A stretch of 64,000 nt of DNA from Stegostoma tigrinum (taxonomy: Eukaryota), in NCBI RefSeq assembly GCF_030684315.1, contig NC_081355.1, positions 136,581,178-136,645,177 on the forward strand, given 5' to 3'. The notes under the pieces are model-generated. The model was not told the origin of the DNA and ran no database searches. It was given only the letters and a program-made list of their open reading frames with translations. Of this stretch, positions 29,101 to 64,000 are shown piece after piece; positions within the stretch are counted from its first letter, which is position 1; every line of letters starts with the position of its first letter. The position numbers and the translations under genes are program-made.

Positions 29101-29129
29101 TATAAAGATGTTGTTTTAACAGACTACAG

Positions 29130-30891: not shown

Positions 30892-30992
30892 ATGCTGCGG
30901 ATGGCTCTTGTTGCTTATGTGTGGCAGCTCGGCAGCTTGTTGCGTCGAGCTGCTCAGCGCCAACATTCTGTAGCTGTACCCTGGTTTTCTGG
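30892..30992 (+). CDS. IDI1: Isopentenyl-diphosphate delta-isomerase, exon 1 (N-terminal extension)
   Basis: MLRMALVAYVWQLGSLLRRAAQRQHSVAVPWFS-GG|gtaagt. Splices in frame (phase 2) to 32718. Confidence 0.7.
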
Positions 30993-32685: not shown

Positions 32686-32943
<258 letters not shown>

Positions 32944-34230: not shown

Positions 34231-34250
34231 AACTGCGTGCAAGTGAATAA

Positions 34251-34418
<168 letters not shown>

Positions 34419-35480: not shown

Positions 35481-35732
<252 letters not shown>

Positions 35733-37909: not shown

Positions 37910-38227
<318 letters not shown>

Positions 38228-42488: not shown

Positions 42489-42641
42489 TCATCGACGGTC
42501 TGTTCTACCCATTTTTCGCTTGCCAGCTAACAGATGCTTTGGTTTAAGATCAAATACGTGTCGGTCAGCCTCTCCTTTCTTTCCCATGCGATTCATGTCC
42601 AGTTGGGAGTTCTTCATCATCTTTTTAACCTTCTTCAACAT
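42489..42641 (-). CDS. GTPBP4: GTP-binding protein 4 (NOG1), last coding exon
   Basis: cttag|[50 protein letters not shown], the conserved NOG1 C-terminus. Confidence 0.96.
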
Positions 42642-43115
42642 CTAAGCAGAACAAAAATAATTAAAGTAGAAAAAAATGCAGAGACAAGGATGACATTGTG
42701 TTAACAATTTATATTTATACAGCATATTAAATACAAAACATCCTATGGTATTTCACAAGAATATTAAGGCTAAAAAAAATTCCTAGATTTATTAAGAGAT
42801 TAAAGGTGATGACCAAAAGCTTAGTTAAAGAAGTCAAAGATATTTAGAGAAGGAATTCCAGAGCTTAGGGGCAAGGCAACTAAAGGCATGACTACTAACA
42901 GTGGAGTAATTATAATCAGTTCTGCTCGAGACACCAGCATTGGATGATCATAGATTGCTTGGAGGGCTGGGGTATAGTGAATATTACAAATATAGGAAGG
43001 GGTTAGGCCATGGAAGAATCTGAAAACAAATTCTAAGTATTTTAAAAACGTAAGTGTTGCTGGTCAACATCTACTCCAATTCAAGCATGTACAAAAGCAA
43101 TGGAGAAACAAGACC

Positions 43116-45712
43116 ATAACGAGGTGTAGAGCTGGATGAACACAGCAGGTCAAGCAGCATCAGAAGTGCAGGAAGTCTGATGTTTCGGGCCTAGACCCTT
43201 CATCAGAAATGGAAGGGAAGGAGGTTCTGAAATAAATAGGGAGAGAGGGGGAGGCGGATTGAAGATAGACAAAGGAGACGATAGGTGGAGAGGAGACAGA
43301 CAGGTCAAAGAAGCGGTGATGGAGCCATTCAAGGTGAGTGTAAGTGGGGAGTTAGGGAGGAGATAGGTCAATCCAAGGAAGACGGACAGGTCAAGGGGGC
43401 AGGATGAGGTTAGTCGGTTGGAGTTGGGGATGGGGCTTGAAGTGGGAGGAGTAGATAGGTGGGAGGAAGGACAGGTTAGGGAGGCAAGGACAAGCTGGGC
43501 TGGTGTTGGGAAGCGGTAGGTGGACAGGAGATTTTGAAGCTTGTGAAGACCACATTGATACCATTGGGCTACAGGGTTCCCATGTGGCAAATGAGTTGCT
43601 GGTCCTGCAACCTTCAGGTGGCATCGTTGTGGCACTGCAGGAGGACCAGGATGGACATGTCTAAGAAATGGGAGGGCAAGTTGAAATGGTTCGCGACTGG
43701 GAGTTGCAGTTGTTTAGTGCGAACTGAGCGTAGGTGTTCTGCAAATCAGTCCACAAGCCTCCACTTGGTTTCCCCAATGTAGAGGAGGCCACAACAGGAA
43801 CAGTGGATGCAGTATTCCACATTAGCAGAAGTGCAAGTGAATCTCTGCTTGATGTGGAAAGTCTTCTTGGTGCCTGGGATGGGGATGAGGGGGGAGGTGT
43901 AGGGGCGGATGTAGCACTTCTGTGGTTGCAGCGAAAAGTGCCGGGTGTGGTGGGGCTGCAGGGGAGTGTGGGGCAGACAAGGGAGTCACAGAGAGAGTGG
44001 TCTCTCCGGAAAGCAGATAAGGGTGGGGAAAGAAAAATGTCTTTGGTGGTGGGGTTGGATTGCAGATGGCAGAAGAGTCGGAGGAGTGGTACGTGAGGAC
44101 AAGGTGGGATTCTGTTTTGGTTGTTGCAGGGAGTGGGTGTGAGGAATGAGTTGCGGGGAATGCGGGAGACACGGTCGAGGGTGCTCTCGACCACGGAGGG
44201 GGGTTGTTACAGTCCTTGAAAAACAAGGACATCTGAGATATACGGGAGTGGAATGCCTCATCCAGGGAGCAGATGCGGTGGAGGTGAAGGAATTGGGAAT
44301 GGGGATGGCATTTTTACAGGAGGGTGGTTGGGAGGTGGTGTATTCTAGGTAGCTGTGGGAGTCAGTGGGCCGGAAATGGGTGGGGTAGTTGCCAGAGACA
44401 TCCATTTCAAGCCCACTGACTCCCACAGCTACCTAGAATATACTTCCTCCCACCCACCCTCCTGCAAAAATACCATCCCCTGTTCCCAATTCCTTCACCT
44501 CCACTGCATCTGCTTCCAGGATGAGGCATTCCACTCAAATACATCTCAGATATCATCCTCGTTTTTCAAGGACCGCAACATCCCCCGAATCAGTGGTCAA
44601 GAATGCCCGCAACTCATCCCTCACACGCCCTCCCCACAATAACAACCAAAAGAGAATCTCCCTCGTCCTCACGTACCACCCCACCAATATCAGGATCCAA
44701 TGCATCATCCTCCGAGACTTCCGCCATCTGCAATCCGACCCCACAACCAAAGGCATTTTTCTCTCCGCACCCATATCTGCTTTCCAGAAGGACCCGGTCT
44801 CTGTGACTCCCTTGTCTGCTGCACACTCCCCTCCAGCCACACCACACCTGGCACTTTTCCCTGCAACTGCAGGAAGTGCTACACCCACCCCTACACATTC
44901 TCCCACATCCCCATCCCAGGGCCCAAGACGACTTTCCACATCAAGCAGATGTTCACCTGCACATCTGCTAATGTGGTATACTGCATCCGCTGTTCCCGTT
45001 GTGGCCTCCTCTACATTGGGGAAACCAAGCAGGGGCTTGGGGACTGCTTTGCAGAACACCTTTGCTCGGTTTGCACTAAACAACTGCAACTCCCAGTCGC
45101 GAACCATTTCAACTCCCCCTCCTACTCCTCAGACGATTTGTCCATCCTGGGCCTCCTGCAGTACCACAACGACGTCACCCGAAGGTTGCAGGAACAGTAA
45201 CTCATATTCCACTTGGAAACCCTGCAGCCCAATGGTATCAATATGGACTTCACAAGCTTCAAAATCTCCCCTCCCACTACCGCATCCCAAAACCAGCCCA
45301 GCTCTTCCCTGCCTCACTAACTTGTCCTTTCTCCCACCTATCGCCTCCTCCCACCCCAAGCCACACCGCCATCTCCGACTGACTAACCTCATCCTGTCCC
45401 CTTGACCTGTCCATCCTCCCTGGGCTGCCCATCTCCTCTCTACCTCTCCACCTATACTCACCTTTACTGGCTCCATCCCCACTTCTTCGACATGTCTGTC
45501 TCCTCTCCACCTATCTTCTCCTTTATCCATCTTCTATCCACCTATCTCCCTATTTACTTCAGAATCCCCATCCCCTCCCCCATTTCTGATGAAGGGCCTA
45601 GGCTCAAAATGTCAGCCCTCCTGCAGCTCTGATGCTGCTTGGCTTGCTGTGTTCATCATGCTCTACATCTTGTTATCTCAGATTCTCCGGCATCTGCAGT
45701 TGCTACTATCTC
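43116..45712. mobile_element. Older fold-back Penelope-like (Neptune-like) insertion with ~1.27-kb inverted arms
   Basis: Arms ~43116-44382 and ~44399-45676 both start at 'F(K/R)PTDSHSYLEYT'. They encode 'FPCNCRKCYT...NVVYCIRCSRCGLLYIGETK'. The tail runs to 45712. The TSD TGGA(G/T)AAACAA is at 43101-43111 and 45713-45723. Confidence 0.9.
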
Positions 45713-46810
45713 TGGATAAACAAAAGAATTAGGAATATGAGAAGACTCATCACCTTCAGCCTGCTCAACTAATCAGGTCGACCTGATTGTAGCTGTAATT
45801 CTGCATTTCCACCTATTCCCGATATCCTTTCATGCGCTTACTTAACAAGAATCTACTTTGTATTAAAAAATTTCATGGATTTTGCTTCCATGACCTTTTC
45901 AGGTGTAGTGTTTCCAAGGGCTCATGACCCTCAGAGAAAATAATTAGCCTCAATGTTTTAAATCGGCAATTCTTGACTTTTAAACAGTAGTTCTAAATTC
46001 TCCCATAAGAAGAAAGATCATTTCCACATCCAACCTGTCAAGATCCCTTAGAATCTTTTATCTTTTAATCAGGCCACCTCTTCAAAACACAATAAACAGA
46101 AGATCATTCTGCCCCTTTAATCCGTTCTGCCATTCAACATCACCACTGACCACCATTTATACTCCCATTCTCTCCCTATATTCATCCAGAAACCTATCAA
46201 TTTATTTCCTAATAATATTCAATGCTTGTTCTCCACATTCTTCTGTGATACAAAATTCCACTCCTCACTGAAGTAATTTTTCCTCATCTCATTACTGCCT
46301 ACTGGGCATCCAGAGACAACAGTCCTTGGTTCGAGGACACCCTTCCTCCACCACCAAACACACCCCCCATCCCAAAATCCCTATCCCTTCTATTCCATAG
46401 CTCTATCATTGCTCACAAGCCTGTTGTATAGCACTTGTCACGATACCCTCCATTACTTCCTCAAAGACTCAAGAAAATGAGTTAAATTTAAGAATATAAG
46501 AAACAAGAGGATTTGGATCTAGCTAACAGACATCAGCTTCCCAAACCTTTGTTTTCCTTCCAAAGACAACAAAAACAAGTGTGCCAGTTTTATACAAGTA
46601 AATCATCTCAAATTTTATCAAGGGATGTTAAAAGCAGAAAGTTCCCAAATGATCAAATTTCTATTAGGGAAATATACGCAAAATTATTGAGTCTGTTTGC
46701 AACGGTCATCAATGTTTTTGTATATGTGGAATTGAGATGAATTACAGCATATTAAAAAAAAATCAAAAATGTATCAATGAAAACAAGTCTAATGTGTATT
46801 AGGAACAAAC

Positions 46811-46954
46811 CTTTTCATCACGCACACCAGAAAGATCACGTGGAGTGCGCGAAGTACTCCGAATGCGGACTTTAGATGTTGGTGGTTGAGATTCCTCACG
46901 TTTACGTTTTCTGGTGACACTTCTAGATCGTCGAGCTTGCACAGCATAGTGTGC
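46811..46954 (-). CDS. GTPBP4: GTPBP4 penultimate exon
   Basis: tttag|AHYAVQARRSRSVTRKRKREESQPPTSKVRIRSTSRTPRDLSGVRDEK|gtttgt; 144 nt. Confidence 0.95.
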
Positions 46955-47956
46955 CTAAACAATGTGAGGACAAGGTAGAATTTATATTTAAACATTGATC
47001 ATTTTGAAAGATATGATAATTCAATGCATTTAAAAACTTAAAGCTGTTAACACCATTACATTTTCAATACACAATTTAAAAATGTAAATTTGTCATTACT
47101 TCCAAGGAAGGGCAGTTTATAATCAAATGATTGCATTTCAAAACTGCATAAAAATGCCCCCACTGAAAATTTTCTCCCAATGCTCTGAAAGCCTATTATT
47201 GAGGCTTAATAGTAACATATTTGACTATGAGAGGATAATCTTTTGAAGAACAGCTAGGAAAATTCATAATTCCTGCAGACCTGTCCATAACTGACCTTGC
47301 AAAAAATGCCCAAATTTAGCAATCAGACCACGCAATTAGAAACCAAGTATACAAGCCAACATTATACAGTGCCATATCACTCATGCTTAATTCAAAGCAA
47401 TCAGCCAATTTTGTAATTTCATTATTTATGACATAACTTCAGTCCAATTTCAAGGTACCCTTTCGAAAGTTGCCACAAACCAACAGGGAATAATTCCCCC
47501 ATGATTTGGGAGGAAACATCTGCGTGATTCAACAGCACCTTACATCAACTGCTGGGAAGTGCATCTTAGTGGTTGGACCATATGGCTGAGGTGGGGAAAG
47601 AATAAAAGGAAAAGATTCATTTATTTATTTTCCTCCTGTCTTCTTTGGAAGGAGCACCCATTTTCCACAAAGCATCACAACAAGCACCCAGCAATACAAT
47701 GAAAACAAATATATACATTGGTCCTAGGCCACAGCCAACACTGTTTTCTCTTTTTGAACTGAACCATTCAACATTAAGCAAAACAAAAAACTGTAGATGC
47801 TGGAAATCTTAAACAAAAACAGAAATTTCTGGAAAAGAAAAATCAGCAGGTCTGGTAGCATCTGTAGAAAAAAAAGCAGAGTTAACCTTTGAGGTCCAGT
47901 GGCCCTTCATCAAAATGCCACAATTTTAGGTAATATTCAGTTTTAAAAAACCTTAC

Positions 47957-48022
47957 ATCATCTTTGTCATCCATATCTAAGCCAAGCGATCCCATTTCCT
48001 TTTCCAAAGTTTTTCGTTCAAT
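47957..48022 (-). CDS. GTPBP4: GTPBP4 exon
   Basis: tacag|IERKTLEKEMGSLGLDMDDKDD|gtaagg; 66 nt. Confidence 0.95.
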
Positions 48023-48245
48023 CTGTAAAAACAGAAAAATGCTAGTACGTTTGCTTTCAAATTTCTGGAAGAAGGTTCTGCCTTCTCATCCAATGTATTC
48101 ATCAGCATTAACGCTTACGATAAGCAAAATAATAATTATAATGGTCAAAGAAACATGTAATGCATCTTTGCAAAACAATTCAGAATTCTACTATCCATCA
48201 TAACTGGATTGTTTCCTCAAACATATTCAAGGGCAAAACGTTATG

Positions 48246-48562
48246 GAGGTTGGCTCGCCGAGCTCGTCTGTTGTTCCGTGGATGTTTCGTTACTGTGCTA
48301 GGTAACATCCTCAGTGCAGCCTCTGATCAAGCGTTGACCGCATATACATTCCACTATGAAGGAAACCCATTAAGTGAGGCAATCCATCGCAATGGACCCC
48401 AGAGTTTAAAAACCTGGCAGGAAAACACACCGACGCTTCATCAGAGGCTGCACTGAGGATGTTAACAAGCCCAGTAACAAAACGTCTGCAGAACAACAAA
48501 CCAGCTCAGCTAGCCAACGAACCTCAACACCCACAACCTGAGCTACAGATCTACTCCAAAAC
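48246..48562. mobile_element. Miniature palindromic PLE-derived element with two hammerhead motifs
   Basis: Arms of ~90 bp (48246-48336 and 48432-48526) plus a ~36-nt tail. The termini resemble the 3' end of the PLE at 20353. Confidence 0.75.
48448..48491 (+). ncRNA. Minimal hammerhead ribozyme motif (G12-to-A decayed copy)
   Basis: CTGCA-CTGAGGA-T-GTTAAC aagccca GTAAC-AAAA-CG-TC-TGCAG, with a perfect 5-bp stem I. The mirror copy at 48276-48319(-) keeps GAAA and a perfect GTTAC/GTAAC stem II. Confidence 0.7.
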
Positions 48563-48994
48563 CTTAGAAACTTACGGGCGCAACATGCTCAAACTGGCAA
48601 AGAAATGGGAAAATTATGTTGATTATCTCCATTGATTATTAAGTGGTACATATTTAAAATTCAAAACTACGTGGAATTTATTTCATGTTGGCATGCTCAC
48701 TTGGAAAGATTGCAAGTATGACAAGAGGAGGGAACACTCGTGGGTTTTTACCCACATGTGGATCATGGCTATCAGTACAAAGCGATTGCGGATCCTAATC
48801 CAGGTAAGAAGTTTGGAGCAACAATTCCACTTGCCCTGTAAACTTAGAAGACCACAAGAATTACCTGAGGTGGGAGAAGTGAAGGTGATCACCAATATGC
48901 TGACACACTGGAATAGACCATAAACCTCAAAATTAAGTTTAAGTTATTGAACAAGAACCTATTCTTGAAAACAGAACACACAAAATGTACCAAC

Positions 48995-49195
48995 CTTTTT
49001 AGCAGTTCTTGGCATCTTGGGACCCTTTTTTGTTTGTTTCTCTCTGGATATCAAGATTTGCATTTTTTTCTTTTCTCTGATTTGACTGGCCAACTTCCTA
49101 ATGTCTTTCATTTCTTCATCCTCACTCTCAGAATCTGAATCATATTCACCTGCCATTTGTTTCAATTCTTCTTCTTTTTCAAGCTGTTGCAATTT
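48995..49195 (-). CDS. GTPBP4: GTPBP4 exon
   Basis: tttag|[44 protein letters not shown]...[10 protein letters not shown]|gttggt; 201 nt. Confidence 0.96.
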
Positions 49196-49539
49196 CTAAA
49201 AGATGCATTTACAATTTTTTTTTAAAATCAGACACCAAATCCTAAATAGCAGATAGAGAGCCGATGCACATTAATATTACATTAAAATGCTCTTTTGAAA
49301 TTAAAAAATTGCATTTGAAATCACTAGGCATTTGCAACCATGTGTACTTGACTCCTCAAAACCAAGGTGGCTAATTTAAACCATATTCTAAGGACAATTC
49401 AACAAATAGTTACATAAGCAGTTTGACTTGCTACATAACGACATTCAGAGAATGCTGTGCAGAAAACCACATATCAGTGGTGGATAAGTTGGTGGGGGGG
49501 GGGGGGGGTGGATTCTGACGGACAGGATTTGGAGCATCT

Positions 49540-51235
49540 GGAAAGGCAAAGCCAACGTAGCTTTGCTCGTGGAAAATCGTGTCTCATGCAATTAAATGAG
49601 TTTTTGAAGAAGCGGCATAGAAGATTGATGAAAGCAGAGCATGTGACTTCTGTATGGACTTCAAAACATTTGCTAATGTTCTGAATTATTTGGTTGGATA
49701 AAGTGGGATCCAGGGGGAGCTAACCAACTGCATACAAAATTGGCTTGAAGGTAGGAGTCAGAGGGTGGTGCTAGAGGATTGCTCTGCAAGCTGGATGCCT
49801 GTGACCAGCGGTGTGCCACAAGCATCAGTGCAGGGTCCACTGCTTTTTGGCATTTATATAAATAATTTTGATGTGAATATTGGAGGCATGGTTCATAGGT
49901 TTGCAAATGACACCTAAATTGGTGTTGTAGCGGACAGTGAAGATTATCTCAGAATACAATGGGACCTTAATCAATGGGGTAATGGACCAAGAAGAGGTAG
50001 ATGGAGTCTGATTTAGACAATGTGAGGAGTTGCATTTTGGTAAGGCAAACGGGGGGGCAGGACGTGGGCAGTTAATAATGGTCCTGGTGAGTGCTGCCAA
50101 ACAAAGAGACCTAGGGGTGCAGGCGCATAGATCCTCAAAGTCAAGTTGTAGATAAACAGCGTGGTGAAGAAAGCACCACACAACCAGCCCAGCCCTTCCC
50201 CCCCACCCACTGCATCCCAAAACCAGTCCAACCTGTCTCTGCCTCCCTAACCGGTTCTTCCTCTCACCCATCCCTTCCTCCCACCCCAAGCCGCACCCCC
50301 AGCTACCTACTAACCTCATCCCACCTCCTTGACCTGTCCGTCTTCCCTGGACTGACCTATCCCCTCCCTACCTCCCCACCTACACCCTCTCCACCTATCT
50401 TCTTTACTCTCCATCTTCGGTCCGCCTCCCCCTCTCTCCCTATTTATTCCAGTTCCCTCCCCCCATCCCCCTCTCTGATGAAGGGTCCAGGCCCGAAACG
50501 TCAGCTTTTGTGCTCCTGAGATGCTGCTTGGCCTGCTGTGTTCATCCAGCCTCACATTTTATTATCTTGGAATCTCCAGCATCTGCAGTTCCCATTATCT
50601 CTGGTGAAGAAAGCGTTTGGCACGCCTGCCTTCATTAGTCAGAACATTAAGTGTAGGAGTTGGGATGTCAAGTTGCATCTGTATAGGTCATTGGTGGGGC
50701 CAATTTTAGAATACTACGCACAATTCTGGTTATCCTTCTATAGCGAAGATGATGTCAAACTTGAGAGGGTGCAGAAAAGATTTACAAGGATGTTGCTGGG
50801 ACTGGAGGATTGAGTTACAGGGACAGGCTGATTAAGCTGGGACGTTTACTTCCCTGTAGCATTGAAGGCCTTTTCAAAGATTATAAAAATCATGAGGGGC
50901 ATGAATAGGATGAATTGCCAAAGTCTTTTTGCTAGGGTGGGGAGTCCAAAACTAGATGGCATAGATTTAAGTTAAGAAGGTAATGATTTACAAGGGATCT
51001 GAAGGGTAACTTTCTCACATAGACGGTGGTGCTTGTATGGAGTAAGCTGCCAGAACAAGTGGTGGAGGCAGGTACAATTACAACATTTAAGGGTCATCTG
51101 GATGGGTATATGAATATGAATGGTTAGAGGGACATGCACCAACTGCTGGCAAATTGGACCTGGTCGGGTTGGGATACCCGGGTCAGCACGGACAAGTTGG
51201 AGTAGAGGGTCTGTTTCCGTGCTGTGTGACTCTAT
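49540..51235 (+). mobile_element. Degenerate CR1 LINE
   Basis: 'SFARGKSCLMQLNEF' and 'LVGPILEYYAQFW...LERVQKRFTRML'. Confidence 0.85.
50175..50601 (+). mobile_element. Young Penelope-like 3' fragment with hammerhead motif (50473-50504), nested in CR1
   Basis: Nearly identical to 27535-27960. The 13-bp TSD TGGTGAAGAAAGC is at 50162-50174 and 50602-50614. Confidence 0.92.
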
Positions 51236-51373
51236 ACACCACAGTTTACAGGAAAATAATGCTGTGCTGGCGTCTTTGTTAAGTCTAGAAAATTACTCTC
51301 TCAGTAATGTTTAGATACCTGGCAAAAGACAAAACCATTAACATTATAAAGGTAGACTATAACCCTAACTCAC

Positions 51374-51474
51374 CTGCATAATTTCAGGATCGATGTAATC
51401 AGCTATGTTGTGACCTTCCCATATTTCGGGAATCAGATCTTGCTTCTCAGACTCATTCATTAGATCCCAGTGTT
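51374..51474 (-). CDS. GTPBP4: GTPBP4 exon (most 5' exon found in this copy)
   Basis: ctttag|[35 protein letters not shown]|gtgagt; the NOG1 C-terminal domain motif [15 protein letters not shown]. Confidence 0.96.
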
Positions 51475-51699
51475 CTAAAGAATGAACAGATGTTACTTAC
51501 TGAGATGTAAATATTTGATATTTTAGCAGCAAAATTACCACAGAAATATTATCGGTGAGTAAACAAATCAAATGCTCAAACTCCAGTCATGTGGTTGCAG
51601 TGGGAGAGAGACTCACTGAGTTCTCTTCAGAAAGAGAAGGAAAACTTCAAGGTGGACATCTTTAGAAAAAACTTCGCAGAATGGTTTTCATTGACTCGG

Positions 51700-51950
51700 A
51701 GACTGTAAGGACAGCTGATGCTGGAAGCTAGAGTCGATAAGTGTTGGAGCTGAGAAAGCAGGTCAGACAGCATCTGAGGAGCAACAAAGTCAATGTTTCG
51801 GGCCAAAACCCTTTGTCAGAAGTCTTGGCAAAGGGTTCTAACCCAAAACATTGACTTTCCTGCTCCTCAGATGCAGTCTGACCTGCTGTGCTTTTCCAGC
51901 TCTACATTTATTGACTCCAGTTCTGGCATGTGCAGTCCTTACTGTCTCCA
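51700..51950. mobile_element. Miniature palindromic Penelope-derived element
   Basis: GGAGACTGTAAGGACAGC...CATCTGAGGAGCAACAAAGTCAATGTTTCGGG is inverted against CCCAAAACATTGACTTTCCTGCTCCTCAGATG...GCAGTCCTTACTGTCTCC. Confidence 0.75.
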
Positions 51951-52220
51951 AACTCCAGTCAGCCAGGTACTCCTGTTCAGTGCATCTGGAAAGAATTCTT
52001 ATCTGCATCTCACATTTTAATGAAGAAACCCAACAGCAATATCCAGAGATATCTCCTTTTCAAATATTCAACTATATATATTTAATAAAGCTAGTCAAAT
52101 GTCCACTAAGCCCAATTGTTTTGGAAACATCAAGTTGTCTGACATCAATCCTTACGGGGCCCTCAAAACATGTGATTTGCACCATAAGCACTATAACCTG
52201 CAAAGCCATGGATCAAGTAC

Positions 52221-52838
52221 ACCTCCGCTCAGTTCGCAATAAACAACTGCACCTCCCAGTCGCAAACCATTTCCACTCCCCCTCCCATTCTTTAGATGAC
52301 ATGTCCATCATGAGCCTCCTGCAGTGCCACAATGATGCCACCCGAAGGTTGCAGGAACAGCAACTCATATTCCGCTTGGGAACCCTGCAGCCCAATGGTA
52401 TCAATGTGGACTTCACCAGCTTCAAAATCTCCCCTTCCCCCACCGCATCCCAAAACCAGCCCAGCTCTTCCCCTCCACCCACTGCATCCCAAAACCAGTC
52501 CAACCTGTCTCTGCCTCCCACCTGTTCTTCCTCTCACCCATCCCTTCCTCCCACCCCAAGCCGCACCTCCATCTCCTACCTACTAACCTCATCCCACCTC
52601 CTTGACCTGTCCGTCTTCCCTCGACTGACCTATCCCCTCTCTACCTCCCCACCTATACTCTCCTCTCCACCTATCTTCTTTTCTCTCCATCTTCGGTCTG
52701 CCTCCCCCTCTCTCCCTATTTATTCCAGAACCTTCACCCCATCCCCCTTTCTCATGAAGGGTCTAGGCCCGAAACATCAGCTTTTGTGCTCCTGAGATGC
52801 TGCTGGGCCTGCTGTGTTCATCCAGCCTCACATTTTAT
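52221..52838 (+). mobile_element. Penelope-like 3' fragment (single arm, no tail)
   Basis: 'HLRSVRNKQLHLPVANHF...RRLQEQQLIFRLGTLQPNGIN'. The 10-bp TSD GATCAAGTAC is at 52211-52220 and 52839-52848. Confidence 0.92.
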
Positions 52839-53474
52839 GATCAAGTACTGGAAAGCGGGATTAAGAATGAACGACTAGGTTATTCAATTTGCACAGATCC
52901 CACGCACTTAATGACAGCTTTTAATGATGTAATGTGTTGATGATCATCTTATCATCTAGGTCAGGAGATGGAGGTAGGATCCAGCACAATAGTAGGAGCC
53001 CAACTAGTTAAGACAAACTGCTGTGAAACTCGGATTGAAGTCTGAGTTGGTGGCAAGGTCACTATTGCGTGCGCGCCTTAATACAAAGGGAGACTTCATG
53101 CCCAGACACTCTTCCAGTCTCTAGCCAAGTCATTTGCCAGTATTAAAACAAAAAAATTGGCTTTACTCAGGCTAACAACAAAATTCACGCAGACGATTAA
53201 TTTAGCTTGGTTCAGTCCTTAACCATTGCAACTTCTTGCATCCAGATTACATATTGATCAATCAAAGGTTTCCTCTGCAAAACATGCTTCTGATGATTCA
53301 GAAAATGAAGTCTTCCAATTAAGGAATTAGACTCTGAACATTTAATTAACTCAAAAGGAAAAATTATTATAATATTTAATTTAAGGATAGTTTTTATTAA
53401 GAATCAATGAAACAAGGAATTTGAAAATATTTTTAAAAGCTCATAACCCAGAGTTGGACTTGAATATGTAATCA

Positions 53475-53668
53475 TAGAACAGTACAGGCCCTTTGGCCCT
53501 CGAGGTTGTGCCGACCTGTCATACCGATCTGAAGCCCATCTAACCTACACTGTTCCATGTATGTCCAAATGCTTATCCAATGACGACTTAAATGTACCTA
53601 AAGTTGGCAAATCTACTACTGTTGCAGGCAAAGCGTTCCATTCCCTTATAACTCTTCGAGTAAAGAAG
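53475..53668 (-). mobile_element. CR1 3' end
   Basis: Near-identical to 23420-23610. Confidence 0.85.
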
Positions 53669-53948
53669 TAATCCTTGGAATAGAAGTCCCATTTGCAAAT
53701 AAATGACCTTATCGGCCACATACTCAGTGCTTCCACAGACACGGAAACAATACAAATTCAAGACTATAGCTGATGGCTGAAGCTTATGGACACCCACATG
53801 AAATAACTTATAATAAATAATAATAACAAGGCAGAACAAACTCAATGAGCCACAAATTTTAATCTACTGTAGCTGGAACGGAAAGGCTCCAGGAAGGGTT
53901 GTGCATGTTTTACGCCATCTGACACTTTTCCAATCAGGTGTTAGTAGC

Positions 53949-55602
53949 ATAACACGGTATAGAGCTGGATGAACACAGCAGGCCAAGCAGCATCAGAGGA
54001 GCAGGAAGGCTGATGGTTCGGGCCTAAACCATTCTTCAGAAATGGGGGAGGGAAAGGGGGTTCTGAAATAAATAGGGAGAGAGGGGGAGGTGGATAGAAG
54101 ATGGATGAAGGAGAAGATAGGTGGAGAGGAGACAGACAGGTCAAAAAGGCGGGGATGGAGCCAGTAAAGGTGGGTGTAGATGGGGAGTTAGGAAGGAGAA
54201 AGGTCAGTCCAGGGAGGACGGACAGGTCAAGGGAGCGGGATGAGGTTAGTAGGTAGGAGATGGGGGTGGTGTTTGAGGTGGGAGGTGGGGACGAGCTGGG
54301 CTGGTTTTGGGATGCAGTAGGGGGAGGGGAGATTTTGAAGCTCGTGAAGTCCACATTGATACCATTGGGCTGTAGCATTCCCAAGCAGAATATGGGTTGC
54401 TGTTCCTGCAACCTTCGGGTGACATCATTGTGGCACTGCAGGAGGACCAGGATGGACATGTCATTTGAAGGGAAAGGGGAGTTGAAATACTTCACAACTG
54501 GGAGATGCAGTTGTTTATTGCGAACCAAGCGAGGCTGTTCTGCAAAGTGGTCCCCAAGCCTCCGCTTGATTTCCCCGATGTAGAGGAGGTCACAACAGGA
54601 ACAGCGGATACAGTACACCACATTAGCAGATATGCAGGTGAACACCTCCTTGATGCGGTAAGTCTTCTTGGGGCCTGGGATAGGGGTGAGGGGTATGGTG
54701 TAGGGTTAGGTGTAGCACTTCCTGCCATTGCAGGGAAAAGTGCAGGGTGTGCAACCGCAGGATATTTTCTCTACAACAGCAGGAAGTGCTACAACTGCCC
54801 CAACACCTCCCCCAACACCCCCATCCCAGGCCCCAAGCCTTTCCACATCAAACAGATGTTCACCTGCACATCTGCCAATGTGGTATACTGCATCCGCTGT
54901 TTCCGTTGTGGCCTCCTCTATATCAGGGAAACCAAGCGGAGGTTTGGGGACTGCCTTGCAGAACACCTACACTCGGTTCACACTAAACAACTGCACCTTC
55001 CAGTCATGAACCACTTCAACTCACCCTCCCTTCCTTAGAAAACATGTCCATCCTGGGCCTCCTAGAGTACCACAACGATGCCACCTGAAGGTTGCAGGAA
55101 CAGTAACTCATAATCCCCTTGGGAACCCTGCAGCCCAATGGTATCAATGTGGACTTGACAAGTTTCAAAATCTCCCCACCTCCTACTGCATCCCAAAACC
55201 AGCACAGTTCATCCCCGCCTCCCTAAACTGTCCTTTCTCCCACGTATCCCCTCCCCTCCCACCCCATCTCCTACCTACTGACCTCATCCCGCCCCTTGAC
55301 CTGTGTCCTCCCTGGACTGACCTATCTCCTCCTTAACTCCCCACCTACACTCACCTTTACTGGGTCCATCCCCGCCTCTTTGACCTGTCTGTCTCCTCTC
55401 CACCTATCTTCTCCTTTATCCATCTTCTATCCACCTCCCCCCTCTCTCCCTATTTATTTTAGAACCCCCTTCCCCTCCCCCATTTCTGATGAAGGATTTA
55501 GGCCCGAAACATCAGCCTTCCTGCTCCTCTGATGCTGCTGTTCATCAAGTTTTACACAGTGTTATCTCAGATTCTCCAACATCTGTAGTTCCTACTATCT
55601 CT
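53949..55602. mobile_element. Older fold-back Penelope-like insertion with ~0.8-kb inverted arms
   Basis: GIY-YIG 'NVVYCIRC..C.LLYI.E.KRR' is on both strands (ORFs 53941-54645 - and 54505-55038 +). The centre is at ~54750. The direct repeat AGGTGTTAGT is at 53936-53945 and 55609-55618. Confidence 0.9.
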
Positions 55603-55916
55603 GAAACAAGGTGTTAGTGGTGTTGTAATTACAATGTCATAAATTAGTTATTACAGGTCTACATTGAACAGGGGATGGAAGTTATCTTTCTTGATAATCT
55701 GTTCTTCTTCCTGACTCCCCTTGTTTACAAATTCTCTAATCTTGCTGGGCTCAACATTGAAAATTATCTTTTACATCTGCTCCTAATTAAAACTTTATGT
55801 CTGCCGGTCTAACTAATGATTTATCTAGCAGGGATCACTTTGGAAGAGGGCACAATTTACAGAATTTAATAAGAATAATGTCAGATGATCAAACCATCAA
55901 GTAAAATTTTAACAGT

Positions 55917-57379
55917 GATAATGGGAACTGCAGATGCTGGAGATTCCAAGATAATAAAATGTGAGGCTGGATGAACACAGCAGGCCAAGCAGCATCTCAG
56001 GAGCACAAAAGCTGACGTTTCGGGCCTAGACCCTTCATCAGAGAGGGGGATGGGGGGAGGGAACTGGAATAAATAGGGAGAGAGGGGGAGGCGGACCGAA
56101 GATGGAGAGTAAAGAAGATAGGTGGAGAGGGTATAGGTGGGGAGGTAGGGAGGGGATAGGTCAGTCCAGGGAAGACGGACAGGTCAAGGAGGTGGGATGA
56201 GGTTAGTAGGTAGCTGGGGGTGCGGCTTGGGGTGGGAGGAAGGGATGGGTGAGAGGAAGAACCGGTTAGGGAGGCAGAGACAGGTTGGACTGGTTTTGGG
56301 ATGCAGTGGGTGGGGGGGGAAGAGCTGGGCTGGTTGTGTGGTGCAGTGGGGGGAGGGGATGAACTGGGCTGGTTTAGGGATGCAGTGGGGGAAGGGGAGA
56401 TTTTGAAACTGGTGAAGTCCACATTGATACCATATGGCTGCAGGGTTCCCAGGCGGAATATGAGTTGCTGTTCCTGCAACCTTCGGGTGGCATCATTGTG
56501 GCAGTGCAGGAGGCCCATGATGGACATGTCATCAAGAGAATGGGAGGGGGAGTGGAAATGGTTTGCGACTGGGAGGTGCAGTTGTTTGTTGCGAACTGAG
56601 CGGAGGTGTTCTGCAAAGCGGTCCCCAAGCCTCCGCTTGGTCTACATTGGGGAAACCAAGCGGAGGCTTGGGGACCGCTTTGCAGAACACCTCCGCTCAG
56701 TTCGCAACAAACAACTGCACCTCCCAGTCGCAAACCATTTCCACTCCCCCTCCCATTCTCTTGATGACATGTCCATCATGGGCCTCCTGCACTGCCACAA
56801 TGATGCCACCCGAAGGTTGCAGGAACAGCAACTCATATTCCACCTGGGAACCCTGCAGCCATATGGTATCAATGTGGACTTCACCAGTTTCAAAATCTCC
56901 CCTTCCCCCACTGCATCCCTAAACCAGCCCAGTTCATCCCCTCCCCCCACTGCACCACACAACCAGCCCAGCTCTTCCCCCCCACCCACTGCATCCCAAA
57001 ACCAGTCCAACCTGTCTCTGCCTCCCTAACCGGTTCTTCCTCTCACCCATCCCTTCCTCCCACCCCAAGCCGCACCCCCAGCTACCTACTAACCTCATCC
57101 CACCTCCTTGACCTGTCCGTCTTCCCTGGACTGACCTATCCCCTCCCTACCTCCCCACCCACACCTTCTCCACCTATCTTCTTTACTCTCCATCTTCGGT
57201 CCGCCTCCCCCTCTCTCCCTATTTATTCCAGTTCCCTCCCCCCATCCCCCTCTCTGATGAAGGGTCTAGGCCCGAAACGTCAGCTTTTGTGCTCCTGAGA
57301 TGCTGCTTGGCCTGCTGTGTTCATCCAGCCTCACATTTTATTATCTTGGAATCTCCAGCATCTGCAGTTCCCATTATCT
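55917..57379. mobile_element. Hybrid fold-back Penelope-like element at the duplication junction
   Basis: The right part is a copy of 26.9-27.96 kb. The left end carries the 36-nt tail and variants absent from copy 1, and it lacks the left TSD. Confidence 0.9.
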
Positions 57380-57438
57380 ATGACACGTCAAAGGACCTTC
57401 TTTCATGCTGTGAATTTCTTTGATATATTCAGAAGGTC

Positions 57439-58519
57439 AGGAGGAATGGGATACAGGGGAACTTAGCTGCTTGGATACAGAATTGGCTGGCCAACAGAAG
57501 ACAGCGTGTGGTAGTAGAAGGAAAATATTCTGCCTGGAAGTCAGTGGTGAGTGGGGTTCCACAGGGCTCTGTCCTTGGGCCTCTACTGTTTGTAATTTTT
57601 ATTAATGACTTGGACGAGGGAATTGAAGGATGGGTCAGCAAGTTTGCAGACGACACAAAGGTCGGAGGTGTCGTTGACAGTGTAGAGGGCTGTTGTAGGC
57701 TGCAGCGGGACATTGACAGGATGCAGAGATGGGCTGAGAGGTGGCAGATGGAGTTCAACCTGGATAAATGCGAGGTGATGCATTTTGGAAGGTCGAATTT
57801 GAAAGCTGAGTACAGGATTAAGGATAGGATTCTTGGCAGCGTGGAGGAACAGAGGGATCTTGGTGTGCAGATACATAGATCCCTTAAAATGGACAGGGTT
57901 GTTAAGAAAGCATATGGTGTTTTGGCTTTCATTAACAGGGGGATTGAGTTTAAGAGTCGTGAGATCTTGTTGCAGCTCTATAAAACTTTGGTTAGACCGC
58001 ACTTGGAATACTGCGTCCAGTTCTGGGCGCCCTATTATAGGAAAGATGTGGATGCTTTGGAGAGGGTTCAGAGGTTTACCAGGATGCTGCCTGGACTGGA
58101 GGGCTTATCTTATGAAGAGAGGTTGACTGAGCTCGGTCTCTTTTCATTGGAGAAAAGGAGGAGGAGAGGGGACCTAATTGAGGTATACAAGATAATGAGA
58201 GGCATAGATAGAGTCGATAGCCAGAGACTATTTCCCAGGGCAGAAATGGCTAGCACGAGGGGTCATAGTTTTAAGCTGGTTGGTGGAAAGTATAGAGGGG
58301 ATGTCAGAGGCAGGTTCTTTACGCAGAGAGTTGTGAGAGCATGGAATGCGTTGCCAGCAGCAGTTGTGGAAGCAAGGTCATTGGGGTCATTTAAGAGACT
58401 GCTGGACATGCATATGGTCACAGAAATTTGAGGGTGCATCCATGAGGATCAATGGTCGGCACAACATTGTGGGCTGAAGGGCCTGTTCTGTGCTGTACTG
58501 TTCTATGTTCTATGTTCTA
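57439..58519 (+). mobile_element. CR1 LINE (duplicate of 28020-29100)
   Basis: Identical 307-aa ORF at 57508-58431. Confidence 0.95.
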
Positions 58520-59913
58520 TATAAAGATGTTGTTTTAACAGACTACAGAATGCCATGGTACAAAGGGACTTGTGTGTCTTGTACATGAATCAGGAAGTAG
58601 TCAGGAAGACAAATCAAATATTGGTCTTTCTTGCAAGGTGGAATGGAGTATAAATGAAGGAACGTCTTGCTACAAATGTTCAGAACATTAATAAGACCAC
58701 AACTAGAGTCTTGCCTACAGTTTTGGTCTAATTGTTCACGTTGGGATAGAATTGCATTGGAAACCATTCATTTTACCAGGTTGATTCCTGGGTTGAAAAG
58801 TTTGTCTTCTGAAAAATGCTTGAACAGGTGGGACCTACACTCAGTGAAGTTTACAATTGTGGGAGGTGATCTTATTGAAGCATATACTTCTGAGGACACA
58901 GAATTTATTGTGAGGATCTCAGAATTTGCTATTGGCATTTTGAAGTTAGTTGGGAGTTCTCCACTCCAGACAGTGGTATAGACTAAGTCACTGAATACAT
59001 TCAAACCAACCAATTCCTTAATTTTAGTGGAGGACAGACTAAGTGGGCTGAAGGAAAAGATCATTATCAGCCATGATCTTAATAGATGAAAGGGCAGAAT
59101 TTGAGGGGACCATACTCTGAAATCTGTCTTTTTGATTCCCAAATATCAATTTCTTGTCCATCATCAGTAACTCCTGTTTTAAGTTTTTGTTTCACTTCCC
59201 AATAACTGTTTGAAAAATAATTGCATTATCATTCGACTCAATGTAAAGAATTTTTAAGATGGAAGAACATATTGTGCAAATTGCTGAATATCCACACTTT
59301 TGGACTGATCTAAGAGATTGTAACCAGTCAATAAAAATGAAATACTAGTAGTGGATGCTGGGAACCTGACTTAAAAACAAAGAAGACTGAAGAAATTCAG
59401 GAGGTCTAGCAAAAAGAAACAGGGGTTGGCTAGCTCACAACAACAGCATAAGTTTCTGGAAAAGCTCAGCAGGTCTTGCAGAATCTGTGAGGGAAAAAGC
59501 AGCGCTAACATTTCTGAGATAGTAGGAACTGTAGATGCTGGAAAATCTGAGACAATAAGGTGTAGAGCTGGATGAACCCAGCAGGCCAAGTAGCATCAGA
59601 GGAGCAGAAGGCTGACGTTTCAGGCCCGGACCCTTCTTAACATTTCTGGTTCGGTGACCTTTCCTCAGCACCGGAGTTGTTATACTGGTTAGCTCAATTT
59701 GCTGGACTGTTATTGCCACTGAGTTCAATTCCGCTCCAGCCGAAGTTACCATAAGATATTCACTCACTAAAGTTAAAACCCTCTCCAGACATATTTTTCT
59801 CTCTCTCTCCCCCCGACCCCTCTGGCGGAAACAGCAATCTTGTAGTCTTTCTCTTTAGAGAAAAACAAGAGTTAGCGTTTCGAGTCCGATAATAACTTCT
59901 TCAGAACTTTTAA

Positions 59914-60310
59914 GGGCCACAACCAATAGAGCAGGTGGAAGCAGGTTAAAACGTCATTTGCACGTTACTCTGGTGGGCGGAACTCAGTAAAACGTCGAAG
60001 GGTAGCGGAAGGTGTAGGAGGAGGCAGATATCCGTCTGAAACCGAGCAATTGAAAATAAGGATCGGCGGAGCGGGCTGCTTTACGGCTACCAGCGGGATT
60101 GGATACACGATCAGCACGCGGCGGCTGTTGACTCGATACAGCGTTGTCTTGACGTTCGATTGGAACACGGACAATCACCGGGCAACATTCGATCTCAGTG
60201 CGCATGCGCTTTCCTCCCGGGCCACGCTCGAACCACCGCCCGCTGATTGGGCCTGCTCATCGGAAGATCGCGGAAGGCGGCCAGCGGATTGGTGGGTTTC
60301 AGTCGGATTG
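59914..60310 (+). promoter_or_regulatory. IDI1 copy 2 promoter
   Basis: Copy of 30495-30891. Confidence 0.75.
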
Positions 60311-60411
60311 ATGCTGCGGATGGCTCTTGTTGCTTATGTGTGGCAGCTCGGCAGCTTGTTGCGTCGAGCTGCTCAGCGCCAACATTCTGTAGCTGTACCC
60401 TGGTTTTCTGG
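60311..60411 (+). CDS. IDI1: IDI1 copy 2, exon 1
   Basis: Identical to 30892-30992. Confidence 0.7.
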
Positions 60412-62104
60412 GTAAGTGGTAGTTAGTCTAACCTCTAGTAACCAGAATCAAGTTGGCTTTCATGTCAGTGAAAGTAAACCCAGTGATTTCTTCCTCACCT
60501 CCTTGTTACGAAAGGAATAATTTCTTTATTAGTTTCTCGACGGCCTTGGGTTACCGAAACTGCAGGAACTGTATCAGAGATAATGGCAACTACATATTCT
60601 GGACAGTGCAAATAGTTTGGATAAAAACCGAAAGAACTGCGGATGCTGTAAATCACCAACAAAAACGGAAGTTGTTGAAAAGCTCAGCAGGTCTGGTAGA
60701 GTCACCGGACCCGAAATGTTAACTTTTTTTCTTCACAGATGCTGTCAGACCTGCTGAGCCTTTCCAGCAACTCCTGTTTTGTTACTGTAATTTGAATCTG
60801 TGGGATGAGGTATTTTGTGGAAAGATCCCGCAATTTAAATCAGGCTGTTCTGCCCAAATAGACTGCCAGCGTTTCTGCTGCAGATGAGTATCACCTCTTC
60901 TGTTTTTCCCCCCTAACCTCCTCATATCTCGGTCCTTTGTTCCGTCCTCATTTTGCTGTCCTGTCCTCATTTTGCTGTCCTATATGTAGCGAGGCTCTGT
61001 GTCTCAGGAACCTATAATACAGTTAGTCTCTGTAGCCTAGTTAGATTGGAAACCTTTTCCTAAGGAATAGGAGTAATCCGATCAGTACCTCAATCCTGGG
61101 AGACAATTCTAGATCATCTCCCTTAATTGCTACACTATTCCTTGAGAACAAGCAATCTCTGGGTTGCAAACAGGGTCTGTTCACAGGTCAATTTGTATGC
61201 AAGTCAGAACACAATACAGGACAATATAAAATAGCCATCGGTAAATATGAAGTAGATGCTAGAACTTTAAAGTTTAATATTTAATGCAACTCTACGTGGT
61301 ATGACTTTTATAAGGATGAATGTTTGGAATTCAGGATGTTGTTAAATTGGGATTGTGATTAGAAATCTTGATTTCTGCTGAGTTTGCTTAATGATAGAAT
61401 TCTTCACCCCAGAGGACTGTGGGAATTCAGACGATTCCCTGTCTTTTGACTGAAGAGGTACCTCCTCCGATCGATCTTAAGTGACTTACCTCTCACCCTG
61501 ACCTGATGTCTGAATACTCCAGACTCTAACCATGGGAAACCACCTTTCCGTATCTACTGTCTATCCATTTAAAACTTTATTTCTAAAAACTGGATCTGTG
61601 CCTAAACTACCAGAACAAGCGATGAGTTCATGAGTGTTATTCCTTGAAACCAGATATAAATGTGTACCAGTGTAAAATGGCACTACAGTTCCCAAAAGAT
61701 TATGCTGCTCCTTTTAAGTGATGTAGGTGTTGTCCCCTTAGTGGAAGGATAAGTGACTTATTTTCCTGTAAGTAGCCACAAGAGTCATAGATGCTTGTTG
61801 CTTTGTCATTTTACTCTTTTTCTTCTGCTGGTAACTTGGTCTGGCTGAAATTAAGATGTTATGGTGGAAAGGTGAAGAAAAAAGTAATGTCTTGTATAGT
61901 ATCCGTGTTGATGTGATATATATCTGGATACCACCTTGCTGCAGAAGAAACTAAACAAATTTTTGTTTTATAATTTTAATTCTAAATTCTAATGCTAACA
62001 TCCACTCAACTGACAGTCTGTTTTTACAAAATGAAACTTTTTGTAACATATGTTTAATACACAAATTGCAAGTAAAAGTTGGAATGGTCATTAGACTAAT
62101 GTAA

Positions 62105-62362
<258 letters not shown>

Positions 62363-63669
62363 TAAGTTATCAGGATTACAAAACACTAGTTAACTTCTTC
62401 CTTTTGGCATTTTCTGTACTCCAGCCCAGGTGAGAAGGGTGATAGCTTGGAAACGTCATCAGGCAATTCCTGCCCAACCAGAGCATCTCTACCGTGGAGA
62501 CTCTATTATGTATCTTCTTAGTAAAATATTGAGTAAATAGTTATGACTTATATGTTGTTTTTTCACCAAAAAATTCATCAAAGTATCAAAGCCTCTTATT
62601 CTCTGGAGAACATGCAAGTTCTCTGGAAGGAAAACACTGATACAGACTTGCTGGTCTCCATGATCAAAGTATATCCTGCCCATTCCAGTAGCATGTGCTA
62701 CCATTAAATTGAGGGTTTCATAATGATGTTTGGTGTCAGATCACGGCTTATCAAAAAGCAACATTACAAAGTAATTTAACTCTTGAAAATGAAGAAGAGG
62801 CAATTTATTTCATGAAGTTGCTACCAATCAGACAGTCTCAATGTGGATGGATGTTATTCTATATCATGATTTCAACTGTGTGGCTGTCTAAATTTTGAAA
62901 CTTGGGAGGAGCAAGAGAAGAAGATTCTCAGCTGCGTAGATCTCTAACTTTTCATCTTTAAAAGCAAGAAGGTTTTTGGGGAAGGGTTGCTGAAAATAAG
63001 AGTAGAATCTGCAATATGAATTTTAAATCTTTGAAAGGAAAATACAAACTTATTTGTTCAAAATATTTATGGATAGAAAGGTTTTCTTAAATTTATTTGT
63101 GGATGTGAGGAGTGTCATATCAGGCATGATCCTGTTACATGCTGAAGCAGACTTGAGGGCCTGAATGGCCTACTCTTTCTGATTTCTTGTGCTTCCCAGA
63201 AGATAGGATTGTAACTGCAGCTGCTAGAATGTCAGCACGCAGAGTATGTTGATGCTGAACATGCAGAAAAGATTTACAAGGATGTTGCCAGGGTTGGAGG
63301 GTTTGAACTGTAGGGAGAGGCTGACCAGGCTATTTTCCCTGGAACATCGGAGGTTGAGGGGTGACCTTTCAGAGGTTTATAAAAACTTGAGGGGGCATGA
63401 ATAGGGTGCATAGCTAAGGTCTTTTTCCTAGGGTAGGGGAGTCCAAAACTAGAGGGCATACGTTTAAAGTGAGAGGGGAAAGATATGAAAGGGACCTGAG
63501 GCATTGGATGGGTACATATAGGAAGGGTTTACAGGGATATGGGGGGGGGGCAAATGCTGGCAAATGGGACTAGATTAATTTAGGATATGGGACTGGCCTG
63601 GATGAGCTGGACCGAAGGGTTTGTTTCTGTGATGTACGTCGGACTCTATAACTGCGTGCAAGTGAATAA

Positions 63670-63837
<168 letters not shown>

Positions 63838-64000
63838 TAAGATCCTAGGGTATTGGCAGTGAAAATCTCTCACCCTAGTTTGTTTTACTTCAGTTATCAG
63901 GGTTCCTAGGGCTTCACAGTTGATACCATTCTCAGTCGTTTGTAAGTTGGAAGGTTCTGGCGTCAAGTCCCAATGCAGGACCTGAAGAACAAAATTAAAG

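What the first reader, a model, noticed from the sequence alone, without database searches (positions are those of the whole stretch)
55900..56330. 29.4-kb tandem duplication whose breakpoint is a chimeric Penelope element
Seen: in copy 1 the left arm starts right after the TSD with no tail and reads GAGACTGG and GGAGAAGGTGTGGG, with a G7 run. In copy 2 the left arm is attached to GTPBP4 intron sequence, has the full tail (55917-55951) and no TSD, and reads GAGGCTGG and GGAGAGGGTATAGG, with a G8 run. Beyond ~56320 I noticed only one difference (T27541 vs C56960). Inference: unequal crossover, or an assembler join, between the intergenic palindrome and a same-orientation family member in a GTPBP4 intron. 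The crossover falls after ~56135. A cruciform-prone palindrome is a plausible break initiator.
Basis: partly seen in the sequence, partly recalled or inferred. Interest (0 to 1): 0.7.

Follow-up and report, generated by a model that had tools for sequence, protein, structure and literature searches.

The report
Retroelement-joined tandem duplication in a shark
A roughly 29-kb stretch of a shark chromosome, including the whole IDI1 gene, appears twice in a row, joined where two copies of the same jumping gene fused; this is a familiar kind of rearrangement, and an assembly error is not excluded.

Summary
Window 26527-34581 recurs at 55945-64000 (99.9%). Copy 1 begins with an intact Penelope-like palindrome flanked by a 15-bp TSD. 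In copy 2 the left arm has the 35-nt tail, no left TSD, and three alleles also seen in other family copies, so it is a chimera. The flank lies in GTPBP4 intron 12 (exons 13-17 present, exon 12 absent). Only 8 kb of the repeat is visible. Two named zebra-shark proteins, a full GTPBP4 and an identical fragment (residues 419-634), support a tandem unit of at least 25 kb. Corrections: the crossover can only be bracketed to 56136-56640; the family is of the Zn-finger-linker (Neptune/Nematis) type; nothing here supports cruciform initiation. Best reading: a recent homology-directed exchange between two same-orientation elements (about 0.52). Rivals: assembly artefact (0.30) and capture of a new insertion's cDNA (0.15). 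Reads and the downstream site at about 85.3 kb could not be checked. Verdict: a new member of a known kind (TE-mediated tandem duplication); interest 0.3.

The parts
26519..26533 (+). Left copy of the 15-bp TSD of the original palindromic insertion
   Evidence: exact match at 26519, 27961, 57380 only
26534..27222 (-). L1: left (inverted) arm of the original PLE insertion, 5'-truncated within the GIY-YIG coding part, no tail; one partner of the exchange
   Evidence: 3 mismatches to R1 in 688 aligned bp
27223..27235 (.). 13-bp spacer at the palindrome centre (insertion-specific junction)
27236..27960 (+). R1: right arm with GIY-YIG C-terminal coding part, 3' UTR, hammerhead-like core and full tail; private T27541
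27961..27975 (+). Right copy of the TSD
28005..29012 (+). LINE reverse-transcriptase fragment (CR1-like by recall) carried in both copies; second copy at 57424-58431
   Evidence: (PF00078, E 7.5e-15)
30892..38224 (+). IDI1 copy 1, five coding exons, CpG island at about 30.4-31.0 kb
   Evidence: (tblastn of P0122)
42492..51475 (-). Orphan GTPBP4 3' fragment, five exons (residues 415-634; exons 13-17 by recalled numbering); first in-frame Met is residue 419
   Evidence: residues 1-60 and 300-416 not found
51476..55916 (-). GTPBP4 intron upstream of the residue-415 exon, cut by the junction
   Evidence: inference that it is one intron throughout
55917..55951 (-). 35-nt PLE tail of the junction element, joined directly to intron sequence, no TSD partner in the window
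55952..56135 (-). Outer segment of L2 derived from a different family member (alleles at 56129, 56133, 56135 shared with other copies)
56136..56640 (-). Crossover interval: identical to L1 except G8 at 56312-56319 (56320-56640 if G8 is real); holds canonical G4 motifs at 56129-56155, 56229-56249 and 56298-56329
56641..57394 (+). Palindrome centre, R2 arm and lone right TSD copied from the original insertion
   Evidence: same spacer, same private A allele (27423/56842)
60311..63783 (+). IDI1 copy 2, coding exons 1-3 visible, identical to copy 1
55945..64000 (+). Visible part of duplicate copy 2 (runs off the window)

Best explanation
The segment from the intergenic PLE palindrome through IDI1 to an intron of GTPBP4 was duplicated head to tail by a homology-directed exchange (unequal crossover or break-induced template switch). 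The partners were two near-identical, same-orientation PLE copies 29.4 kb apart: the palindrome's left arm and a minus-strand copy already present in the GTPBP4 intron. The junction keeps the intronic copy's tail and outer 219+ bp, switches somewhere in 56136-56640, and continues into the palindrome's centre and right arm. The products are a second IDI1 with about 4 kb of upstream sequence, an orphan GTPBP4 3' fragment, and an intact GTPBP4 downstream. Shown: the chimera, the lost TSD, the interval, the gene content, and near-identity. Inferred: tandem continuation past the window, prior existence of the intronic element, and that the structure is biological. The event is recent or still polymorphic.
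For: In-register chimeric join with up to 505 bp of near-perfect homology. The outer alleles are family alleles, not noise: T at the 56135 site is in the copies at 50173-50603 and 52216-52842; T at 56133 is in the latter and is implied by the translation of P0241; C at 56129 is in both copies. The centre and the right-arm private allele come from the original insertion. A named full GTPBP4 (P0002, 634 aa) and a named 'GTPBP4-like' (P0001) identical to residues 419-634 are listed with the same longest-contig length, and P0001 begins at the first Met of the first exon left in this window. There is no N gap at the junction, whereas false duplications on one scaffold were most often gap-separated (PMC9516828, passages). 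In humans 91% of TE-mediated deletions and duplications join same-orientation elements, and HR-type events leave one chimeric element (PMC9675761, passages).
Against: No reads, depth or second haplotype were available. The downstream site (about 85.3 kb) is outside the window, so the intronic partner is unseen. The outer segment of L2 has no private substitution that would show it aged in place (few are expected in 219 bp). At 29.4 kb the event is longer than the largest of the human TE-mediated events described (25.4 kb). Near-identity (1 substitution in 7681 bp) is also what a homotype false duplication gives. RefSeq models only mirror the assembly and do not validate it.
Confidence: 0.52

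Rival explanations
1. Assembly artefact: two overlapping contigs, or a graph loop, were joined through the homologous PLE copies, and the genome has one copy of the segment.
For: The copies are almost identical, and one of the two differences right of 56135 is a homopolymer length. The junction lies in a palindrome, and PLE tandem/inverted structures are stated to cause assembly problems (PMC8557442, passages). False '-like' partial genes next to the true gene are the typical result of false duplication, and some joins are gap-filled (PMC9516828, passages).
Against: There is no gap and the join is clean and in register. For two haplotypes at pi = 0.002 (epaulette shark, a relative; PMC10587355), 15 differences are expected in 7681 bp and 1 is seen: Poisson P 3.5e-6, but only about 0.12 once coalescent variance is allowed, and 0.37 at pi = 0.0005, so this is weak. 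From general knowledge, long-read assemblers span 0.7-1.5 kb repeats and tend to collapse rather than expand 29-kb near-identical tandems.
Confidence: 0.3
2. Insertion-mediated duplication: a new PLE insertion was primed in the GTPBP4 intron (giving the tailed end), and its growing cDNA paired with the homologous left arm 29.4 kb away and was extended there, fixing the duplication with no reciprocal element downstream.
For: It predicts exactly this junction: a tailed 3' end on fresh flank, no TSD, another source element's alleles outside, and a switch within homology. The family is young, with copies 98.8-99.6% alike. The outer segment of L2 has no private substitutions. Pairing of L1 cDNA with nearby homologous DNA has been proposed for human L1 (10.1101/2024.08.27.596794, passages). 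A PLE protein cuts and extends both strands in vitro (PMC11167929, parts 1-2 of 4).
Against: Templated L1 events in that preprint are typically under 250 bp and within 15 bp of the site. From recall, recombination-type events outnumber insertion-mediated ones for human repeats. My searches listed no PLE case.
Confidence: 0.15
3. Sub-hypothesis on initiation: cruciform extrusion or hairpin formation at the palindrome made the break. A nick at the cruciform base would leave a 3' end inside the left arm with the centre intact, able to invade the intronic copy.
For: Arms of 689 bp at 99.6% identity with a 13-bp spacer; the central 215 nt folds at -147.3 kcal/mol as DNA. A 12-bp-spaced Alu quasi-palindrome makes hairpin-capped breaks in yeast (PMC8053094, passages). 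The geometry is compatible by inference.
Against: The same paper reports an 80% drop in breaks at a 9-bp spacer, level to 12 bp, and no fork pausing. The centre is unaltered in both copies. Older inverted pairs at 82-84% identity persist at 43.1-45.7 and 54.0-55.6 kb. Both same-orientation young pairs in the region include a palindrome arm, so there is no control. G4 motifs lie in the same interval and are reported as enriched at cartilaginous-fish SV breakpoints (PMC13320814, passages). The confidence given is conditional on the duplication being real.
Confidence: 0.2
4. Fold-back: the left arm of copy 2 is a snap-back copy of its own right arm rather than a second element.
For: L2 and R2 both carry the tail and are 99.3% complementary over 725 columns.
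Against: L2 differs from R2 at three family-polymorphic sites and has L1's allele, not R's, at 56454. It stops at the family's 3' terminus instead of running into the TSD flank.
Confidence: 0.02

Closest known systems
TE-mediated rearrangements of the homologous-recombination type (TEMR-HR; Alu and LINE-1 duplications, PMC9675761)
   Same: Two same-orientation family members, one chimeric element in register at the junction, tandem gain of the intervening segment.
   Different: The substrate is a Penelope-like element, one partner is an arm of a palindrome, the size is 29.4 kb against medians of 1-4 kb and a maximum of 25.4 kb there, and the homology tract (up to 505 bp) is longer than their maximum of 307 bp. 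The reciprocal partner has not been seen.
Canonical EN+ PLE insertions with inverted pLTRs and an optional tail (PMC8557442, PMC3846280, PMC11167929)
   Same: Head-to-head 5'-truncated inverted copies, a 30-40 bp tail usually at one end only, and a TSD; copy 1 is a textbook case.
   Different: Copy 2 has two tails and one TSD, which a single insertion of this family does not explain.
Penelope trans-mobilisation of an intron-containing host gene in Adineta vaga (PMC3846280)
   Same: A host gene with its introns duplicated next to PLE repeats.
   Different: There the copy is dispersed and framed by pLTRs and a TSD; here it is tandem, has no TSD, and starts with a chimera.
False duplications in vertebrate assemblies (PMC9516828)
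   Same: Adjacent near-identical copies and a partial '-like' gene model.
   Different: No assembly gap, very low divergence, and an in-register repeat chimera; depth and k-mer criteria could not be tested.
Mammalian IDI1/IDI2 duplication (title in the reference list of PMC10542801; tandem position beside GTPBP4 recalled)
   Same: A second IDI gene at this locus.
   Different: Independent and far younger; the copies are identical in the three visible exons, with no sign of divergence or function.

Membership tests
TE-mediated tandem duplication, HR type | Chimeric element joined in register at the junction | tested here: met
TE-mediated tandem duplication, HR type | Partners in the same orientation | tested here: met
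   L1 and the outer segment of L2 are both minus strand
TE-mediated tandem duplication, HR type | Head-to-tail repeat of the whole intervening segment | tested here: inconclusive
   8 of 29.4 kb seen; at least 25 kb implied by P0001 and P0002
TE-mediated tandem duplication, HR type | Both parental elements present at the outer ends of the array and in the unrearranged allele | not testable with these tools
   left parent intact with TSD; right parent at about 85.3 kb is outside the window
TE-mediated tandem duplication, HR type | Read support and raised copy number | not testable with these tools
   no reads available
EN+ Penelope-like elements | RT followed by a C-terminal GIY-YIG endonuclease in one ORF | tested here: met
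   met through a relative: P0242, 91% identical to the window's EN piece, has RVT_1 at 1-121 (below cutoff) and GIY-YIG at 355-432 (23.2 bits, cutoff 22.6); the window copy is truncated and scores only E 0.082
EN+ Penelope-like elements | Inverted 5'-truncated repeat, 30-40 bp tail at one end, TSD | tested here: met
   35-nt tail on one arm, 15-bp TSD; a one-sided tail in 4 of 5 non-chimeric inverted pairs examined
EN+ Penelope-like elements | Minimal hammerhead motif in the pLTR | tested here: inconclusive
   core-like motif by eye at 57254 onward; Rfam gave no hammerhead hit among 9 matches
Neptune/Nematis clades | CX2-5CxxC Zn-finger-like linker between RT and EN (PMC8557442) | tested here: met
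   intact at residue 318 of P0242; decayed in P0241 and in older window copies; the young copies are truncated past it
Neptune/Nematis clades | RT phylogeny placing it in Neptune rather than Nematis | not tested
   no reference set was available; Neptune is assumed from its occurrence in fishes (PMC4209133)
Penelope/Poseidon clade (strict sense) | Absence of the Zn-finger linker | tested here: not met
   linker present in the closest long relative
False duplication (assembly error) | Assembly gap between the copies | tested here: not met
   0 N in the window; a filled gap cannot be excluded
False duplication (assembly error) | Haploid or lower depth, discordant reads, single-copy k-mers | not testable with these tools
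   no reads available

The most novel reading that the evidence does not exclude
The duplication was made by retrotransposition itself: a Neptune-type PLE began inserting in the GTPBP4 intron, and its cDNA was captured by the arm of an older palindromic copy 29 kb away, perhaps opened by the element's own endonuclease or by hairpin extrusion. This would be a germline, gene-duplicating segmental duplication caused by a PLE insertion intermediate. It would imply that the head-to-head PLE palindromes common in this genome act as landing sites that turn new insertions into copy-number changes.
Probability: 0.12. Interest if true: 0.6.

Novelty: new member of a known kind. Interest (0 to 1): 0.3.

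Why it matters
If real, this is a base-resolved case of a Penelope-like element seeding a gene-containing tandem duplication in a slowly mutating vertebrate. It gives an extra intact IDI1 (isoprenoid and sterol pathway) and is probably recent enough to be polymorphic. One look at the downstream site separates recombination from insertion-mediated origin, which bears on the poorly understood late steps of PLE integration. If false, two annotated '-like' genes are assembly errors and palindromic PLEs are a hazard in shark assemblies. Neither outcome changes a general principle.

Tried and rejected
Rfam on 55600-57700: 9 matches, all below their gathering scores, all hairpin-shaped miRNA or sRNA models at the palindrome centre; no hammerhead family. 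Rejected as uninformative. Using 'two tails' alone as proof of chimerism: weakened, because 1 of 5 other inverted pairs (51.7-51.95 kb, old, divergent family) has tail-like ends on both arms; the TSD and the alleles carry the argument. Using G7/G8 to place the crossover: not relied on (a homopolymer private to L2). Dating: 1 substitution in 7681 bp at 7e-10 per generation gives about 93,000 generations (95% interval 2,400-520,000). This is only an upper bound of that order, since the site may be allelic or an error, and the rate is from another species. A chimeric PLE-GTPBP4 protein: the pLTR ATG at 55995 reads outward but stops after 28 codons; rejected as a fusion. A readout transcript initiating at Met419 is possible but unsupported. 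Searches for earlier GTPBP4 exons (residues 1-60, 300-340, 340-372, 372-400, 398-416; 5 of 5 without a real hit); residues 61-299 were covered only by the whole-protein search, also without a hit. Accession-level cluster listing for the GTPBP4 proteins could not be made, so the two-locus reading rests on names, lengths and contig length only. No zebra-shark heterozygosity value was obtained (listing only). The gene at 17.7-18.2 kb stayed unidentified. No supplements were read.

Full report
Observation. Self-BLAST shows one long direct repeat, 26527-34581 = 55945-64000, at 99.90% over 8056 columns. The aligned differences from the element end onward are four substitutions in the first 183 bp (55966, 56129, 56133, 56135), one extra G (56312-56319) and T27541/C56960, then none for 7040 bp. 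Clustering of 4 of 5 substitutions in that segment has P about 1e-6. The 29.4-kb figure is an offset; only 8 kb of copy 2 is in the window.

The element. Copy 1 starts with a head-to-head palindrome: left arm 26534-27222, 13-bp spacer, right arm 27236-27960, with 3 mismatches in 688 aligned bp and a 15-bp TSD on both sides. Only the right arm has the tail. A one-sided tail is seen in 4 of 5 non-chimeric inverted pairs I aligned; the fifth (51.7-51.95 kb) has tail-like ends on both arms. This matches published PLE anatomy: an inverted 5'-truncated copy and a 30-40 bp tail often at one end (PMC8557442, passages; PMC3846280, passages), explained by two RT start sites and cutting of both strands (PMC11167929, parts 1-2 of 4). 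The arms encode the C-terminal part of a GIY-YIG endonuclease. The closest long relatives are P0241 (94%) and P0242 (91%) among 13 hits. P0242 has RT, then a CX4CxxC linker, then GIY-YIG. By the definition in PMC8557442 this is the Neptune/Nematis type, not Penelope/Poseidon; I built no tree. A hammerhead-like core is visible by eye, but Rfam found no hammerhead family.

The junction is a chimera. In copy 2 the centre, the right arm with its private allele (27423/56842) and the right TSD (57380) come from the original insertion. The left arm instead has the tail (55917-55951), no TSD partner, and at 56129-56135 three alleles that differ from L1, R1 and R2 alike. Two of the three are in the copy at 50173-50603 and all three in the older copy at 52216-52842; the middle one is also implied by the translation of P0241. 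They are therefore family variants from a different source. A fold-back from R2 is excluded by these alleles and by L2 having L1's base at 56454. The switch lies between 56136 and 56640; G8, if real, narrows it to 56320-56640. The A26548 difference is private to L1 and does not by itself show foreign origin.

Gene context. Named proteins place five GTPBP4 exons (residues 415-634) on the minus strand at 51475-42492, with nothing earlier in the window, so the junction falls in the intron before residue 415 (intron 12 by recalled numbering). IDI1 has five coding exons at 30892-38224, and exons 1-3 recur at 60311-63783. The two best of 376 hits to a GTPBP4 exon are both named Stegostoma tigrinum proteins at 100%, listed with the same longest-contig length: a 634-aa full protein and a 216-aa 'GTP-binding protein 4-like' identical to residues 419-634. 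The short one starts at the first Met of the first exon left in this window. This indicates two sets of the last five exons in the annotated assembly, so the unit is at least 25 kb and probably the full tandem. The IDI1 hit is also named '-like', in a cluster of 3. These models reflect the assembly and do not validate it, and accession detail could not be obtained.

Mechanism. The best reading is a homology-directed exchange between the palindrome's left arm and a same-orientation copy in the GTPBP4 intron (0.52). It has the hallmarks of HR-type TE-mediated rearrangements: same orientation in 91% of human deletions and duplications, and one chimeric element (PMC9675761, passages), though it is larger than the 25.4-kb maximum there. 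A new insertion whose cDNA invaded the old arm would leave the same junction (0.15); only the downstream site separates the two. An assembly artefact remains serious (0.30). Against it are the absence of a gap (false duplications were most often gap-separated, PMC9516828, passages) and low divergence. One difference in 7681 bp compares with 15 expected at the epaulette-shark pi of 0.002 (PMC10587355, passages), but with coalescent variance P is only about 0.12, and homotype errors are not addressed.

The cruciform idea is possible but unsupported. The geometry works by inference, and the hairpin is very stable in silico. However, yeast breaks fall by 80% at a 9-bp spacer and stay level to 12 bp (PMC8053094, passages), the centre is intact in both copies, and older palindromes at 82-84% identity survive within 15 kb. 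Every same-orientation young pair here includes a palindrome arm, so there is no internal control. Three canonical G4 motifs overlap the interval (of 29 in the window), and G4 motifs are reported as enriched at cartilaginous-fish SV breakpoints (PMC13320814, passages). PLE endonuclease nicking in its own pLTR is another candidate.

Novelty. TE-mediated tandem duplication and PLE palindromes are both known. Searches combining Penelope with ectopic recombination, duplication, breakpoint and shark, Penelope-like with palindrome, tandem duplication, Stegostoma and Neptune, and the IDI1-GTPBP4 locus listed no report of this locus or of a PLE-chimera tandem duplication, judged from titles and abstract starts in an open-access library only. 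A second IDI gene arose separately in mammals (reference title in PMC10542801). Verdict: a new member of a known kind, interest 0.3. The insertion-mediated reading (0.12 as the full novel case) would merit about 0.6.

Noticed in passing
window 43116-45712, 53955-55603, 7740-7953, 51698-51949: Four further inverted PLE-type pairs at older stages of decay (82%, 84% and about 78%); with the young one, five independent palindromic insertions in 64 kb.
   Followed up: partly
window 50162-50614: A young 5'-truncated plus-strand copy of the same family (98.8% to the arms) with a 13-bp TSD, inserted into an old LINE fragment in a GTPBP4 intron; with R1 it forms a second same-orientation recombination substrate 22.6 kb away.
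   Followed up: partly
window 52211-52848: A 92% family copy without the tail and with a 10-bp TSD; it lacks one of the 39-bp tandem units seen in the young subfamily.
   Followed up: partly
window 17750-18200 (minus strand): GC-rich first coding exon of an unidentified gene: signal-peptide-like start and a cysteine cluster weakly like an LRR N-terminal cap (decorin, E 0.43); no Pfam match.
   Followed up: partly
window 20625-21675 (minus strand): A different PLE fragment with RT (E 2e-8) and GIY-YIG (E 0.005) and no visible Zn-finger linker, probably Penelope/Poseidon type.
   Followed up: partly
window 17560-17660: A short near-perfect inverted repeat just downstream of the 17.75-kb exon, seen by eye.
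   Followed up: no
window 55995-55909 (minus strand): The pLTR start codon of the junction element reads outward for 28 codons into the GTPBP4 intron, in the same direction as the orphan exons; a readout transcript is conceivable.
   Followed up: partly
window 3835-4053 versus 28880-29100: LINE 3' ends 95.5% alike, indicating a second fairly young retroelement family in the region.
   Followed up: no
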